64,000 nucleotides of DNA, from the NCBI RefSeq assembly GCF_045037415.1, contig NZ_CP173438.1; one strand, given 5' to 3'. A program made the translations under genes and the position numbers. Within the stretch, counting starts at the first letter, position 1, and each line of letters starts with the position of its first letter. The notes beneath the pieces were generated by a model. It was not told where the DNA came from, did not search any database, and was given only the letters and a program-made list of their open reading frames with translations. Of this stretch, positions 57,748 to 62,151 are shown piece after piece. Origin of the DNA: Escherichia coli (GTDB taxonomy: Bacteria; Pseudomonadota; Gammaproteobacteria; Enterobacterales; Enterobacteriaceae).

Positions 57748-58740
57748 TTACAGCAGAGAAGGGACGCTCTCGCGAACAGCTGCCGGCCATACACCACACT
57801 GAACCTGGCCGATATGTGGCAGTTGCAGCAGCAGCATGGTCAAACGAGACTGCCCGATACCGCCGCCGATGGTCTGCGGCATTTCACCGCGCAGCAGCGC
57901 CTGATGCCACTCCAGCTCCAGGCGATCTTCGTCACCGGTCAGCGCCAGCTGATGCTTCAGCGTGTCGGCATCCACGCGGATCCCCATGGAAGAAAGCTCA
58001 AACGCATCTTCCAGTACCGGGTTCCACACCAGAATATCGCCGTTCAGACCCGCATGGCCCAGCTCTGACGGGGTGCTCCAGTCATCATAATCCGGTGCGC
58101 GCACGTCGTGACGATGACCATCACTCAACTTGCCGCCAATCCCGACGAGGAATACCGCGCCAAGATCTTTCGCAATCGCCCGCTCACGCCCTTTGGCATC
58201 GAGATCCGGATAACGAGACAGTAACTCCTGGCTGTGTACGAAGTGGATCTGATCCGGCAGGAACGGTGCCAGGCCAAACTCTTTGCTAACCGCAGCTTCG
58301 GTTGCTTTAATTCCCGCCCAGATCGCCTCTACCGTGCTTTTCAGAGTCGAGAATTGACGCTCGCCGTCGCCCATTACGCGTTCCCAGTCCCACTGGTCTA
58401 CATAGACCGAGTGCAACGGGGAAAGACGGTCTTCATCGGGGCGAAGGGCTTTCATGTGCGTGTACAGCCCTTCGCCCGCGCTGAAGTCGTGTTGCCCTAA
58501 GGTCTGACGTTTCCACTTCGCCAGTGAATGAACCACTTCGAACTGGGCATCAGGCAGAGCTTTCACTTTTACCTGCACCGCTTTTTCACAGCCCGACAAG
58601 TTATCCTGCGTGCCATCCCCCACACGGCTAAGAATCGGCGCCTGGACTTCGATCAGCCCCAGACGTTCTTCCAGTTGACGAGAAAAGTGAGATTTCACGA
58701 AGCTAATTTGACGTTGTTTGGCAATGTAAGCGGTTTTCAT
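57748..58740 (-). CDS. asnA: Aspartate-ammonia ligase (asparagine synthetase A, 330 aa)
   Basis: ORF track; [38 protein letters not shown]. Confidence 0.95.
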
Positions 58741-58891: not shown

Positions 58892-59350
58892 ATGGAAAAT
58901 TATCTGATCGACAATCTGGACCGTGGCATCCTGGAAGCATTAATGGGCAATGCGCGCACCGCTTACGCCGAACTGGCGAAACAATTTGGCGTCAGTCCGG
59001 GGACGATTCACGTTCGAGTAGAGAAAATGAAGCAGGCGGGGATCATTACCGGGGCGCGTATTGATGTCAGCCCGAAGCAGCTTGGTTATGACGTAGGCTG
59101 CTTTATCGGCATTATATTAAAGAGCGCCAAAGACTATCCTTCCGCGCTGGCAAAGCTGGAAAGCCTCGATGAAGTCACTGAAGCCTATTACACAACCGGC
59201 CACTACAGCATCTTTATAAAAGTGATGTGCCGTTCGATCGATGCTCTCCAGCATGTACTTATCAACAAGATCCAAACAATTGATGAAATTCAGTCCACCG
59301 AGACACTGATCGTCCTGCAGAACCCGATCATGCGTACCATTAAGCCCTGA
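58892..59350 (+). CDS. asnC: Lrp/AsnC-family regulator AsnC (152 aa)
   Basis: ORF track; divergent from asnA. Confidence 0.95.
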   Translation: MENYLIDNLDRGILEALMGNARTAYAELAKQFGVSPGTIHVRVEKMKQAGIITGARIDVSPKQLGYDVGCFIGIILKSAKDYPSALAKLESLDEVTEAYYTTGHYSIFIKVMCRSIDALQHVLINKIQTIDEIQSTETLIVLQNPIMRTIKP

Positions 59351-59371
59351 TCGGCTTTTTTAATCCCATAC

Positions 59372-59380
59372 TTTTCCACA
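59372..59380 (+). promoter_or_regulatory. DnaA-box-like 9-mer TTTTCCACA in the mioC promoter region
   Basis: One mismatch from TTATCCACA; 60 bp upstream of mioC start. Confidence 0.5.
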
Positions 59381-59439
59381 GGTAGATCCCAACGCGTTCA
59401 CAGCGTACAATACGCCACTCTTAATAAAGGTGGCGGTTT

Positions 59440-59883
59440 ATGGCAGATATCACTCTTATCAGCGGCAGCACCCTCGGCGGTGCCGAATATGTAGCAGAAC
59501 ACCTGGCTGAAAAGCTGGAAGAGGCGGGTTTTACCACCGAAACGCTGCACGGTCCGCTGTTGGAAGATTTATCTGCCTCGGGGATCTGGCTGGTTATCAG
59601 CTCAACCCACGGTGCCGGAGATATTCCGGACAACCTTTCTCCTTTCTATGAAGCATTGCAGGAACAGAAGCCCGATCTTTCTGCGGTCCGCTTTGGCGCA
59701 ATCGGTATTGGTAGTCGTGAATATGACACCTTTTGTGGGGCTATCGATAAAATCGAGGCAGAACTCAAAAATTCCGGAGCAAAACAGACAGGCGAAACAC
59801 TGAAGATCAACATTCTTGATCACAACATTCCGGAGGATCCGGCAGAAGAATGGCTGGGATCGTGGATTAATTTACTCAAATAA
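59440..59883 (+). CDS. mioC: Flavodoxin-like FMN protein MioC (147 aa)
   Basis: ORF track; MADITLISGSTLGGAEYVAEHLAEKLEEAGF; transcribed toward oriC. Confidence 0.95.
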   Translation: MADITLISGSTLGGAEYVAEHLAEKLEEAGFTTETLHGPLLEDLSASGIWLVISSTHGAGDIPDNLSPFYEALQEQKPDLSAVRFGAIGIGSREYDTFCGAIDKIEAELKNSGAKQTGETLKINILDHNIPEDPAEEWLGSWINLLK

Positions 59884-59895
59884 GTATACAGATCG

Positions 59896-60173
59896 TGCGA
59901 TCTACTGTGGATAACTCTGTCAGGAAGCTTGGATCAAACGGTAGTTATCCAAAGAACAACGATTGTTCAGTTTTTGAGTTGTGTATAACCCCTCATTCTG
60001 ATCCCAGCTTATACGGTCCAGGATCACCGATCATTCACAGTTAATGATCCTTTCCAGGTTGTTGATCTTAAAAGCCGGATCCTTGTTATCCACAGGGCAG
60101 TGCGATCCTAATAAGAGATCACAATAGAACAGATCTCTAAATAAATAGATCTTCTTTTTAATACCCAGGATCC
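59896..60173. other. oriC: Chromosomal replication origin oriC
   Basis: Reverse complement matches the classic E. coli oriC: DnaA boxes R4 (59906-59914), R3-like (59945-59953), R2 (59980-59988), R1 (60086-60094), three 13-mers, 14 GATC sites, BamHI site at 60168-60173. Confidence 0.95.
60108..60151. repeat. oriC DNA-unwinding element: three AT-rich 13-mers (R 60108-60120, M 60123-60135, L 60139-60151)
   Basis: ctaataagagatc, aatagaacagatc, aaataaatagatc are the reverse complements of GATCTCTTATTAG, GATCTGTTCTATT, GATCTATTTATTT. Confidence 0.9.
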
Positions 60174-60261
60174 CAGGTCTTTCTCAAGCCGACAAAGTTG
60201 AGTAGAATCCACGGCCCGGGCTTCAATCCATTTTCATACCGCGTTATGCGAGGCAATCACC

Positions 60262-62151
60262 ATGTTTTATCCGGATCCTTTTGACGTCATCATCATTGGC
60301 GGGGGTCATGCAGGCACCGAGGCCGCGATGGCCGCGGCGCGTATGGGTCAACAGACTCTGCTTTTGACACACAATATCGACACTCTGGGGCAGATGAGCT
60401 GCAACCCGGCGATCGGCGGTATTGGGAAGGGACATCTGGTAAAAGAAGTGGATGCACTCGGCGGTCTGATGGCGAAAGCGATCGATCAGGCGGGTATCCA
60501 GTTTAGGATACTAAACGCAAGCAAGGGACCGGCGGTTCGCGCTACCCGAGCTCAGGCAGATCGTGTGCTCTACCGTCAGGCGGTACGTACGGCGCTGGAG
60601 AACCAACCGAACCTGATGATCTTCCAGCAGGCGGTTGAAGATCTTATTGTCGAAAACGATCGCGTGGTCGGTGCCGTTACCCAAATGGGACTGAAGTTCC
60701 GTGCCAAAGCTGTCGTGCTCACCGTTGGGACGTTCCTCGACGGTAAAATTCATATCGGTCTGGATAATTACAGCGGTGGCCGTGCTGGTGATCCGCCGTC
60801 CATTCCGCTTTCTCGCCGTTTGCGTGAACTGCCGCTGCGCGTTGGTCGTCTGAAAACCGGGACACCACCGCGTATTGATGCTCGAACCATCGACTTTAGC
60901 GTACTGGCGCAACAGCATGGCGATAACCCAATGCCGGTATTCTCGTTTATGGGCAATGCGTCCCAGCATCCCCAGCAGGTGCCGTGTTATATCACTCATA
61001 CCAACGAGAAAACCCATGATGTGATCCGCAGTAATCTCGATCGTAGCCCAATGTACGCAGGGGTGATCGAAGGTGTCGGCCCACGCTACTGCCCGTCGAT
61101 TGAAGACAAAGTCATGCGCTTTGCCGACAGAAATCAGCATCAGATCTTCCTTGAACCGGAAGGGCTGACCTCTAACGAAATTTATCCGAACGGTATCTCC
61201 ACCAGCCTGCCGTTCGATGTGCAGATGCAAATCGTCCGCTCCATGCAGGGGATGGAAAACGCGAAGATCGTGCGTCCGGGTTATGCCATTGAGTATGACT
61301 TCTTCGATCCACGCGACCTGAAACCGACGCTGGAGAGCAAGTTTATCCAGGGGCTGTTCTTTGCTGGTCAGATTAACGGCACTACCGGTTACGAAGAAGC
61401 CGCTGCGCAAGGTTTGCTGGCTGGTCTTAACGCTGCCCGTCTGTCTGCTGACAAAGAAGGTTGGGCTCCGGCGCGTTCTCAGGCGTATCTCGGCGTACTG
61501 GTTGATGACCTGTGCACTTTAGGAACCAAAGAACCGTATCGTATGTTTACCTCGCGCGCAGAATATCGTCTGATGCTGCGCGAAGATAATGCTGATCTGC
61601 GTTTGACTGAAATCGGTCGTGAACTGGGCCTGGTGGATGACGAACGTTGGGCGCGCTTTAACGAGAAACTTGAGAATATCGAGCGTGAGCGTCAGCGTCT
61701 GAAATCGACCTGGGTAACCCCGTCGGCGGAAGCTGCAGCCGAAGTGAATGCTCACCTGACTGCGCCGCTTTCCCGTGAAGCCAGTGGTGAAGATCTGCTA
61801 CGTCGTCCTGAAATGACTTATGAAAAATTAACCACGCTGACACCGTTTGCCCCTGCGTTGACAGATGAACAGGCTGCGGAACAGGTTGAGATTCAGGTTA
61901 AATACGAAGGTTATATCGCGCGCCAGCAAGATGAGATCGAAAAGCAGCTGCGTAACGAGAATACCCTGCTACCAGCGACGCTGGATTACCGCCAGGTATC
62001 CGGTCTTTCTAACGAAGTGATCGCCAAACTTAACGATCACAAACCGGCCTCTATTGGCCAGGCTTCGCGTATTTCTGGCGTCACGCCTGCGGCTATCTCC
62101 ATTCTGCTGGTGTGGCTGAAAAAACAGGGTATGCTGCGTCGTAGCGCATAA
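60262..62151 (+). CDS. mnmG: tRNA uridine 5-carboxymethylaminomethyl modification enzyme MnmG/GidA (629 aa)
   Basis: ORF track; [32 protein letters not shown]-binding N-terminus. Confidence 0.95.

What the first reader, a model, noticed from the sequence alone, without database searches (positions are those of the whole stretch)
59372..59380. DnaA-box-like element in the mioC promoter
TTTTCCACA lies upstream of mioC, whose transcript reads into oriC. This fits DnaA-controlled mioC transcription modulating origin activity.
Basis: partly seen in the sequence, partly recalled or inferred. Interest (0 to 1): 0.2.

Follow-up and report, generated by a model that had tools for sequence, protein, structure and literature searches.

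The report
Known DnaA box of mioC promoter
The 9-base motif is the long-known, experimentally verified binding site through which the replication initiator DnaA shuts off the E. coli mioC promoter next to the chromosome origin. The finding is correct but ordinary.

Summary
TTTTCCACA sits at 59372-59380 on the + strand, 68 bp upstream of the mioC ATG and 2 bp upstream of the inferred -35 hexamer. The window is the E. coli asnA-asnC-mioC-oriC-gidA region, and the asnC-mioC spacer is identical to K-12 MG1655.

This is the published "mioC (R5) box TTTTCCACA". A 2024 DnaA ChIP-seq study lists a peak (25x over control) at MG1655 3926498, which is window 59397. It names the double box tTTAATCCCAtacTTTTCCACAg, identical to window 59359-59381.

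In 31 Enterobacterales sequences, box positions 4-9 plus the next 10 bases (TCCACAGGTAGATCCC) are invariant while the flanks vary. The box nucleates a phased array of weaker boxes over the -35 and spacer, helped by a one-misfit box (59259-59267) inside asnC. Bound DnaA represses mioC transcription, which reads into oriC with no terminator-like site in between.

[quoted passage not shown] Novelty: already known. Interest is low.

The parts
59372..59380 (+). DnaA box R5 of the mioC promoter, TTTTCCACA (the finding)
   Evidence: Exact consensus match. Identical to MG1655. Named 'mioC (R5) box TTTTCCACA' in PMC5835720. Part of the ChIP-seq double box in PMC11317965. Positions 4-9 are invariant in 31 of 31 Enterobacterales.
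59360..59368 (+). Weak flanking DnaA box TTAATCCCA (2 misfits), 3 bp upstream of R5; together they form the 'double DnaA box'
   Evidence: 2 mismatches. Printed as the upstream half of tTTAATCCCAtacTTTTCCACAg in PMC11317965 Table 1. That paper reports that mutations in either single site, or 4 bp inserted between them, disrupt DnaA binding (citing Hansen 2007).
59383..59391 (+). Box-like 9-mer TAGATCCCA, 2 bp downstream of R5. It contains the inferred -35 hexamer TAGATC (59383-59388) and a GATC at 59385-59388.
   Evidence: Read directly from the sequence. Positions 59383-59390 are invariant and 59391 is 30 of 31. Assigning it as one of the low-affinity boxes (R7, R8 or A) of Hansen 2007 is inference: PMC4585315 gives only the number of boxes, not their sequences.
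59394..59402 (+). Box-like 9-mer GCGTTCACA in the promoter spacer, 2 bp after the previous one
   Evidence: The CACA at 59399-59402 is invariant in 31 of 31 while 59393-59398 vary. Assignment as a weak DnaA box is inferred. The four 9-mers span 43 bp in one orientation with spacings of 3, 2 and 2 bp.
59406..59411 (+). Inferred -10 hexamer of PmioC, TACAAT, 17 bp from TAGATC
   Evidence: Nearly invariant across 31 sequences, with no indels between 59372 and 59411. Not called by the promoter scan, because it matches 8 of 12 and the threshold is 9. I could not retrieve a mapped transcription start.
59259..59267 (+). Distal one-misfit DnaA box TTATCAACA (R6-type) inside asnC codons Leu-Ile-Asn-Lys, separated from R5 by a 104-bp gap
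   Evidence: Present in 30 of 30 Enterobacterales. Six consecutive synonymous third positions (59255-59272) are invariant, permutation p = 6e-4. PMC5835720 says sequences about 100 bp upstream of the promoter contribute to titration. The name R6 and the figure of 104 bp come from my memory of Hansen 2007.
59342..59363 (+). asnC terminator-like hairpin (5-bp stem AAGCC/GGCTT) plus T run, ending 9 bp before R5
   Evidence: The hairpin is weak: -5.9 kcal/mol, z = -1.19.
58892..59350 (+). asnC coding sequence
   Evidence: ORF; RefSeq annotation under 100%-identical matches; MG1655 annotation.
59440..59883 (+). mioC coding sequence (FMN-binding flavoprotein), transcribed towards oriC
59906..60151 (.). 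oriC: R4 59906-14 (-), R2 59980-88 (-), R1 60086-94 (+), 13-mer L ending at 60151
   Evidence: The MG1655 oriC annotation 3925744-3925975 maps to window 59920-60151. No terminator-like site lies between mioC and R4.

Best explanation
This is DnaA box R5, the single consensus, high-affinity DnaA site of the E. coli mioC promoter. It ends 2 bp upstream of the -35 hexamer. DnaA bound here recruits further DnaA-ATP onto three weak, same-orientation boxes spaced 2-3 bp apart (59360-68, 59383-91, 59394-402). The filament therefore covers the -35 element and spacer and keeps RNA polymerase off PmioC. A distal one-misfit box inside asnC (59259-67) strengthens the complex. Occupancy is highest before initiation. 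After initiation, free DnaA-ATP falls and mioC is transiently derepressed, and its transcripts run through mioC into oriC from the R4 side. Shown here or in cited papers: the site's sequence and position, in vivo binding, repression and titration, and its conservation. Inferred: the exact -35 and -10 hexamers, which 9-mers correspond to the published weak boxes, and occlusion as the mode of repression.
For: Sequence and context. The window is E. coli (100% identity), and the spacer and promoter are identical to MG1655. Literature: 'mioC (R5) box TTTTCCACA', with box variants changing in vitro affinity, in vivo titration and mioC repression in parallel; each mioC promoter region titrates about 8 DnaA monomers (PMC5835720). 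DnaA-ATP represses PmioC via five boxes, one of them consensus (PMC4585315); a DARS2 deletion raises mioC-lacZ to 122%. A ChIP-seq peak at 3926498 (window 59397), 25x over control, is listed with a double box identical to window 59359-59381 (PMC11317965). mioC is shut off when DnaA accumulates and restored minutes after initiation (PMC5835720; PMC4446571). Conservation: TCCACAGGTAGATCCC is invariant in 31 Enterobacterales sequences from about 15 genera, and CACAGCGTACAAT is nearly so, against variable flanks. The distal box is frozen at synonymous sites. R6-R5 spacing is 113 bp in 24 of 30 sequences and 124 bp in 5.
Against: There is no evidence against the box's identity. Three limits remain. 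The generic promoter scan does not call PmioC, and I found no transcription-start table covering it, so the hexamers rest on conservation and spacing. The primary papers (Lother 1985, Rokeach and Zyskind 1986, Hansen 2006 and 2007, Bates 1997) are not in the held library, so the details come through reviews. The invariant block extends beyond what a DnaA box needs, so other constraints (the -35 element, Dam/GATC, MraZ) overlap it.
Confidence: 0.94

Rival explanations
1. The box is real and binds DnaA, but its physiological output is not control of origin firing. It would instead time MioC protein expression to the cell cycle (a link to cell division), titrate or sense DnaA-ATP beside oriC, or block asnC read-through transcripts as a protein roadblock.
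For: [quoted passage not shown] The mioC promoter region titrates as much DnaA as an inactivated oriC (PMC5835720). [quoted passage not shown] The asnC hairpin just upstream is weak.
Against: These roles add to promoter repression rather than replace it. oriC plasmids do depend on mioC and gidA transcription. Transcription engineered to read into oriC fails to relieve a ppGpp-induced block on initiation, whereas transcription reading away from oriC relieves it. An origin effect under suboptimal conditions is therefore not excluded.
Confidence: 0.45
2. The conserved block is mainly an operator for another protein, MraZ, whose TGGGN repeats lie on the opposite strand, or it reflects Dam/SeqA action at the GATC. 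DnaA would be secondary.
For: PMC4446571 cites Eraso 2014: MraZ binds a site overlapping the mioC promoter DnaA box, and MraZ overexpression lowers mioC about 12-fold. The minus strand reads TGGGA (59391-87), TGGAA (59378-74) and TGGGA (59368-64). GATC 59385-88 is invariant.
Against: DnaA binding and DnaA-dependent repression are shown directly. The mioC promoter is reported as not sequestered (PMC5835720). The repeat spacing is irregular (8 nt and 5 nt). I could not read the MraZ primary paper.
Confidence: 0.1
3. The motif is a chance occurrence of a 9-mer with no function.
For: About 5 consensus matches are expected by chance per 64 kb, and three TTWTCCACA matches in the window are not significant on their own.
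Against: The core is invariant at the homologous position in 31 of 31 Enterobacterales. The site is the published ChIP-seq and mutational target. About 0.007 chance matches are expected in this 89-bp spacer.
Confidence: 0.01

Closest known systems
DnaA box R5 of the E. coli K-12 mioC promoter (Hansen et al. [quoted passage not shown]
   Same: It is the same element. The sequence from the asnC stop codon to 121 bases inside mioC is identical to MG1655, with the same 9-mer, the same flanking double box and the same distance to mioC.
   Different: Nothing within the element. The strain differs from K-12 by 18 substitutions across 59200-60300, none of them in 59342-59561.
DnaA boxes of the dnaA promoter region (autoregulation of dnaA1p and dnaA2p)
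   Same: One consensus box plus closely spaced weaker boxes upstream of, and overlapping, a promoter. DnaA-ATP is the efficient repressor, and GATC sites lie in the promoter (PMC5835720).
   Different: The dnaA box is TTATCCACA rather than TTTTCCACA. The dnaA promoters are only partly repressible and are sequestered by SeqA after replication, whereas PmioC is fully repressible and reported as not sequestered.
Double DnaA boxes at nrdA, polA, purH, datA, DARS and oriC R4-C1 (PMC11317965)
   Same: Two same-orientation 9-mers 2-3 bp apart, the downstream one strong, bound cooperatively in vivo.
   Different: The mioC pair uses the TTTT variant. It has lower ChIP enrichment (25x, against 120-220x at oriC, datA, polA and purH). 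It continues into two further box-like 9-mers over the promoter.
oriC R1 and R4 boxes in the same window
   Same: High-affinity 9-mers of the same consensus class with C at position 5.
   Different: Those boxes organise the unwinding complex. R5 lies about 530 bp away, outside minimal oriC, and acts as a transcriptional operator and titration site.

Membership tests
E. coli DnaA box (TTWTNCACA) | 9-bp match to the consensus TT(A/T)TNCACA | tested here: met
   Zero mismatches at 59372-59380 on the + strand. It belongs to the TTTT-C subclass, which PMC5835720 reports as the only well-binding TTTT variant.
E. coli DnaA box (TTWTNCACA) | Specific DnaA binding in vitro | not testable with these tools
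   Reported for this exact 9-mer in gel shifts with 17-bp oligonucleotides and 104-bp fragments (Hansen 2006, summarised in PMC5835720).
E. coli DnaA box (TTWTNCACA) | DnaA occupancy in vivo | tested here: met
   Tested by identity to a published bound site. Window 59359-59381 equals the string tTTAATCCCAtacTTTTCCACAg given for the ChIP-seq peak at MG1655 3926498. That coordinate maps to window 59397 through a collinear, indel-free alignment.
E. coli DnaA box (TTWTNCACA) | Conservation at the homologous position in related genomes beyond the neutral background | tested here: met
   Positions 4-9 are invariant in 31 of 31 sequences. Variants: TTTTCCACA 16, TTATCCACA 5, TTGTCCACA 5, CTTTCCACA 4, ATATCCACA 1. 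Flanking spacer columns vary.
DnaA-repressed promoter (operator overlapping or abutting core promoter elements) | Box positioned so that bound DnaA overlaps the -35/-10 region | tested here: inconclusive
   The box ends 2 bp before the conserved TAGATC, which lies 17 bp from the conserved TACAAT, and reviews state that the DnaA sites overlap the mioC promoter. However, the hexamers are inferred, the scan did not call them, and no mapped start site could be retrieved.
DnaA-repressed promoter (operator overlapping or abutting core promoter elements) | Transcription responds to DnaA level or activity | not testable with these tools
   From the literature: repression scaled with box affinity, mioC was shut off when DnaA accumulated in dnaC2 at 40 C, and mioC-lacZ rose in DARS deletions.
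PmioC multi-box array (R5, R6, R7, R8, A of Hansen 2007) | One consensus box plus weak same-orientation boxes at 2-3 bp spacing, and a distal box about 100 bp upstream | tested here: met
   Four 9-mers at 59360-68, 59372-80, 59383-91 and 59394-402 with spacings of 3, 2 and 2 bp, and TTATCAACA at 59259-67 with a 104-bp gap. Five boxes with one consensus box are stated in PMC4585315. Which 9-mer carries which published name could not be checked.

The most novel reading that the evidence does not exclude
The R6-R5 pair is conserved as a fixed-geometry DnaA complex across Enterobacterales. R6 is frozen at six consecutive synonymous sites inside asnC, and the R6-R5 distance is 113 bp in 24 of 30 species and 113+11 bp in 5 more. 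That pattern suggests a phase-dependent loop or filament whose selected function goes beyond repressing mioC, for example a DnaA-ATP sensor or reservoir beside oriC, or a roadblock for asnC transcripts. The single-nucleotide invariance of TCCACAGGTAGATCCC would then reflect several overlapping readers (DnaA, RNA polymerase, Dam, MraZ). The E. coli biochemistry is published; the comparative constraint may not have been described.
Probability: 0.25. Interest if true: 0.3.

Novelty: already known. Interest (0 to 1): 0.07.

Why it matters
It matters little as a discovery. This is a textbook regulatory site, studied since the mid-1980s and re-confirmed by ChIP-seq in 2024. Its value here is as a positive control: a reader working from sequence alone correctly recognised a functional DnaA operator and its context. 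The comparative data add a small refinement, namely how tightly the box, the -35 GATC block, the distal box inside asnC and their spacing are held across Enterobacterales. This fits selection on a multi-box DnaA complex, even though the chromosomal phenotype of losing mioC transcription is subtle.

Tried and rejected
1. The sigma-70 consensus scan did not report PmioC, because TAGATC-17-TACAAT matches 8 of 12 and the threshold is 9. I therefore relied on conservation. I considered an alternative -35, TTCACA (59397-402), paired with CTTAAT or TTAATA, and rejected it because the putative -10 lies in non-conserved columns.

2. I tried to read the primary papers: Ogawa and Okazaki 1994, Eraso 2014 on MraZ and Bates 1997. 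None is held, and Hansen 2006 and 2007 are subscription papers. The details come from reviews, and in two marked cases from memory.

3. I looked for a mapped mioC transcription start in supplements. Conway 2014 has no supplement text held. Kim 2012 has no entry by gene name or coordinate. A full-text search found nothing.

4. Counting motifs in the window as a chance test is not decisive on its own (11 against 4.9 for TTWTNCACA, 3 against 1.0 for TTWTCCACA).

5. I checked whether the box is general to mioC genes in Gammaproteobacteria. It is not: most Vibrio, Pasteurellaceae and Shewanella loci have no consensus box within 330 nt upstream.

6. I considered the asnC terminator hairpin as the main explanation for conservation near the box and rejected it. 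The hairpin sequence varies between species and the hairpin is weak.

Full report
**Observation.** The + strand reads TTTTCCACA at exactly 59372-59380. This is a perfect match to the E. coli DnaA-box consensus TTWTNCACA.

ORFs and RefSeq annotation under 100%-identical matches place the site in the E. coli origin region:
- asnA, minus strand, 57748-58740
- asnC, plus strand, 58892-59350
- mioC, plus strand, 59440-59883
- oriC, then mnmG/gidA from 60262

The window is collinear with K-12 MG1655 over 59200-60300. There are 18 substitutions and no indels, and no differences between 59342 and 59561. Window position x corresponds to MG1655 3985895 - x. The box starts 68 bp upstream of the mioC ATG and 22 bp after the asnC stop codon.

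**Chance.** The window has 11 consensus matches against 4.94 expected. The three TTWTCCACA matches are this site plus oriC R4 (59906-14, minus strand) and R1 (60086-94, plus strand). These counts alone are weak evidence. The background rate gives roughly 0.007 matches in an 89-bp spacer, which is my arithmetic. The stronger evidence is comparative and experimental.

**Published evidence.**
- The review PMC5835720 explicitly names "the mioC (R5) box TTTTCCACA". It reports that among TTTT-type boxes only C at position 5 binds well. Swapping the box for the other consensus variants changed in vitro affinity, in vivo DnaA titration and mioC repression in parallel. A mioC promoter region titrates about eight DnaA monomers.
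- PMC4585315 states that DnaA-ATP represses PmioC through five boxes (R5 and R6 high affinity; R7, R8 and A low), only one of them consensus.
- PMC11317965 maps DnaA by ChIP-seq. Its Table 1 lists a peak at 3926498 ("mioC", 25x over control) with the double box tTTAATCCCAtacTTTTCCACAg. That string equals window 59359-59381, and the coordinate maps to window 59397, 17 bp from the box. The same paper notes that mutating either half-site, or inserting 4 bp between them, disrupts DnaA binding (citing Hansen 2007).

**Anatomy.** Reading outward from R5 there are four same-orientation 9-mers:

| Coordinates | Sequence | Misfits to consensus |
|---|---|---|
| 59360-68 | TTAATCCCA | 2 |
| 59372-80 | TTTTCCACA | 0 (R5) |
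| 59383-91 | TAGATCCCA | 4 |
| 59394-402 | GCGTTCACA | 3 |

- The gaps between them are 3, 2 and 2 bp, and together they span 43 bp.
- The third 9-mer contains the best -35 candidate, TAGATC, which carries a GATC. It lies 17 bp from TACAAT at 59406-11.
- From memory, Hansen 2007 described exactly such an arrangement: four boxes, one orientation, 2-3 bp spacing, and a distal R6 104 bp upstream. I could not read that paper, so the mapping of names to 9-mers is inference.
- A one-misfit box, TTATCAACA, lies at 59259-67 inside asnC, separated from R5 by a 104-bp gap.
- A weak asnC terminator-like hairpin (5-bp stem, -5.9 kcal/mol, z = -1.19) with a T run sits at 59342-63.
- No terminator-like site lies between the mioC stop codon and R4. 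This fits mioC transcripts entering oriC (PMC6606810).

**Conservation.** I scanned one genome per species with a degenerate pattern anchored in mioC codons 9-18, away from the promoter. I then aligned the upstream regions of the 30 Enterobacterales hits plus the window. The hits include Escherichia, Salmonella, Citrobacter, Enterobacter, Leclercia, Kosakonia, Pluralibacter, Siccibacter, Trabulsiella, Superficieibacter, Phytobacter and Brenneria.
- Columns 59375-59390 (TCCACAGGTAGATCCC) are invariant in all 31 sequences, and 59399-59411 (CACAGCGTACAAT) is nearly so. The spacer on either side varies.
- Box variants are TTTTCCACA (16), TTATCCACA (5), TTGTCCACA (5), CTTTCCACA (4) and ATATCCACA (1). 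Change is therefore confined to positions 1 and 3.
- The distal box is present in 30 of 30. The six codons GTA CTT ATC AAC AAG ATC that cover it have invariant third positions, whereas only 11 of 57 synonymous sites in this stretch are invariant overall. The permutation p for a run of six is 6e-4.
- The R6-to-R5 distance is 113 bp in 24 of 30, 124 bp in five related genomes and 159 bp in one. The box-to-ATG distance ranges from 67 to 87 bp. This amounts to only two independent indel events, so phase preservation is suggestive at most.
- Within E. coli, the 60-mer 59356-59415 is identical in 4988 of 5424 complete genomes.
- Outside Enterobacterales, most Vibrio, Pasteurellaceae and Shewanella mioC genes have no consensus box within 330 nt upstream.

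**Mechanism.**
- Best-supported account: R5 is the high-affinity anchor, and DnaA-ATP extends cooperatively over the flanking weak boxes and hence over the -35 element and spacer, excluding RNA polymerase.
- R6 stabilises the complex.
- Repression is maximal before initiation. After initiation, titration and RIDA (regulatory inactivation of DnaA, which lowers DnaA-ATP as replication proceeds) reduce DnaA activity, and mioC is derepressed within minutes (PMC5835720; PMC4446571).
- Shown (here or in the cited papers): site identity, in vivo binding, DnaA-dependent repression and titration, and conservation.
- Inferred: the hexamer assignment, the box names, and occlusion as the mode of repression.

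- "Modulating origin activity" is the classical transcriptional-activation model. It is supported for oriC plasmids.
[quoted passage not shown] Lies et al. instead attribute a mild cell-division phenotype to loss of MioC protein.
- Other documented or proposed roles for the same site are DnaA titration, a roadblock to asnC read-through transcripts (Gielow 1988 and Schaefer and Messer 1988, cited in PMC11317965), and overlap with a MraZ site (Eraso 2014, cited in PMC4446571).

**Verdict.** The element is already known, so interest is low. The only mildly new material is the comparative picture: the invariant 16-bp block, the synonymous-site freeze over R6, and the conserved R6-R5 spacing.

Noticed in passing
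window 59255-59272: Inside asnC, six consecutive codons (GTA CTT ATC AAC AAG ATC) have invariant synonymous third positions in 30 Enterobacterales, while neighbouring codons vary. The run covers a one-misfit DnaA box, TTATCAACA (59259-67), and a GATC (59269-72). Permutation p = 6e-4. This indicates DNA-level constraint within a coding region.
   Followed up: yes
window 59259-59380 and loci L005, L012, L017, L050, L071, L025: The distance from the distal box to R5 is 113 bp in 24 of 30 species, 124 bp (+11, one helical turn) in a Kosakonia/Phytobacter-like group and 159 bp in Siccibacter. The 21-nt stretch from the asnC stop to R5 keeps its length even though its sequence varies. Only two indel events are involved, so the case for phase preservation is weak.
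   Followed up: partly
window 59364-59391, minus strand: TGGGA (59391-87), TGGAA (59378-74) and TGGGA (59368-64) lie on the strand opposite the DnaA boxes. PMC4446571 cites Eraso 2014 that MraZ binds a site overlapping the mioC DnaA box and represses mioC about 12-fold when overexpressed. The primary paper could not be read.
   Followed up: partly
window 59385-59388: A GATC lies inside the inferred -35 hexamer TAGATC and is invariant in 31 of 31 sequences. Even so, PMC5835720 describes the mioC promoter as not sequestered. Why this GATC is so strictly kept is not explained by the DnaA consensus.
   Followed up: no
loci L034, L078, L101, L107, L113, L060 (Photobacterium), about -143 and -66 from the mioC anchor: Several Photobacterium species carry consensus DnaA boxes on the minus strand at two recurring positions upstream of mioC, unlike most Vibrio, Pasteurellaceae and Shewanella loci, which have none within 330 nt. 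This may be an independent or differently arranged DnaA control of mioC.
   Followed up: no
window 59906-59914 versus MG1655 annotation: The RefSeq oriC feature of MG1655 (3925744-3925975) maps to window 59920-60151 and so stops 6 bp short of DnaA box R4 (59906-14). The literature includes R4 in minimal oriC. This is an annotation boundary quirk, not biology.
   Followed up: yes
window 59342-59363: The asnC terminator-like hairpin has only a 5-bp stem (-5.9 kcal/mol, z = -1.19), and its sequence is not conserved between genera. This is consistent with leaky termination and a possible need for the DnaA roadblock just downstream.
   Followed up: partly
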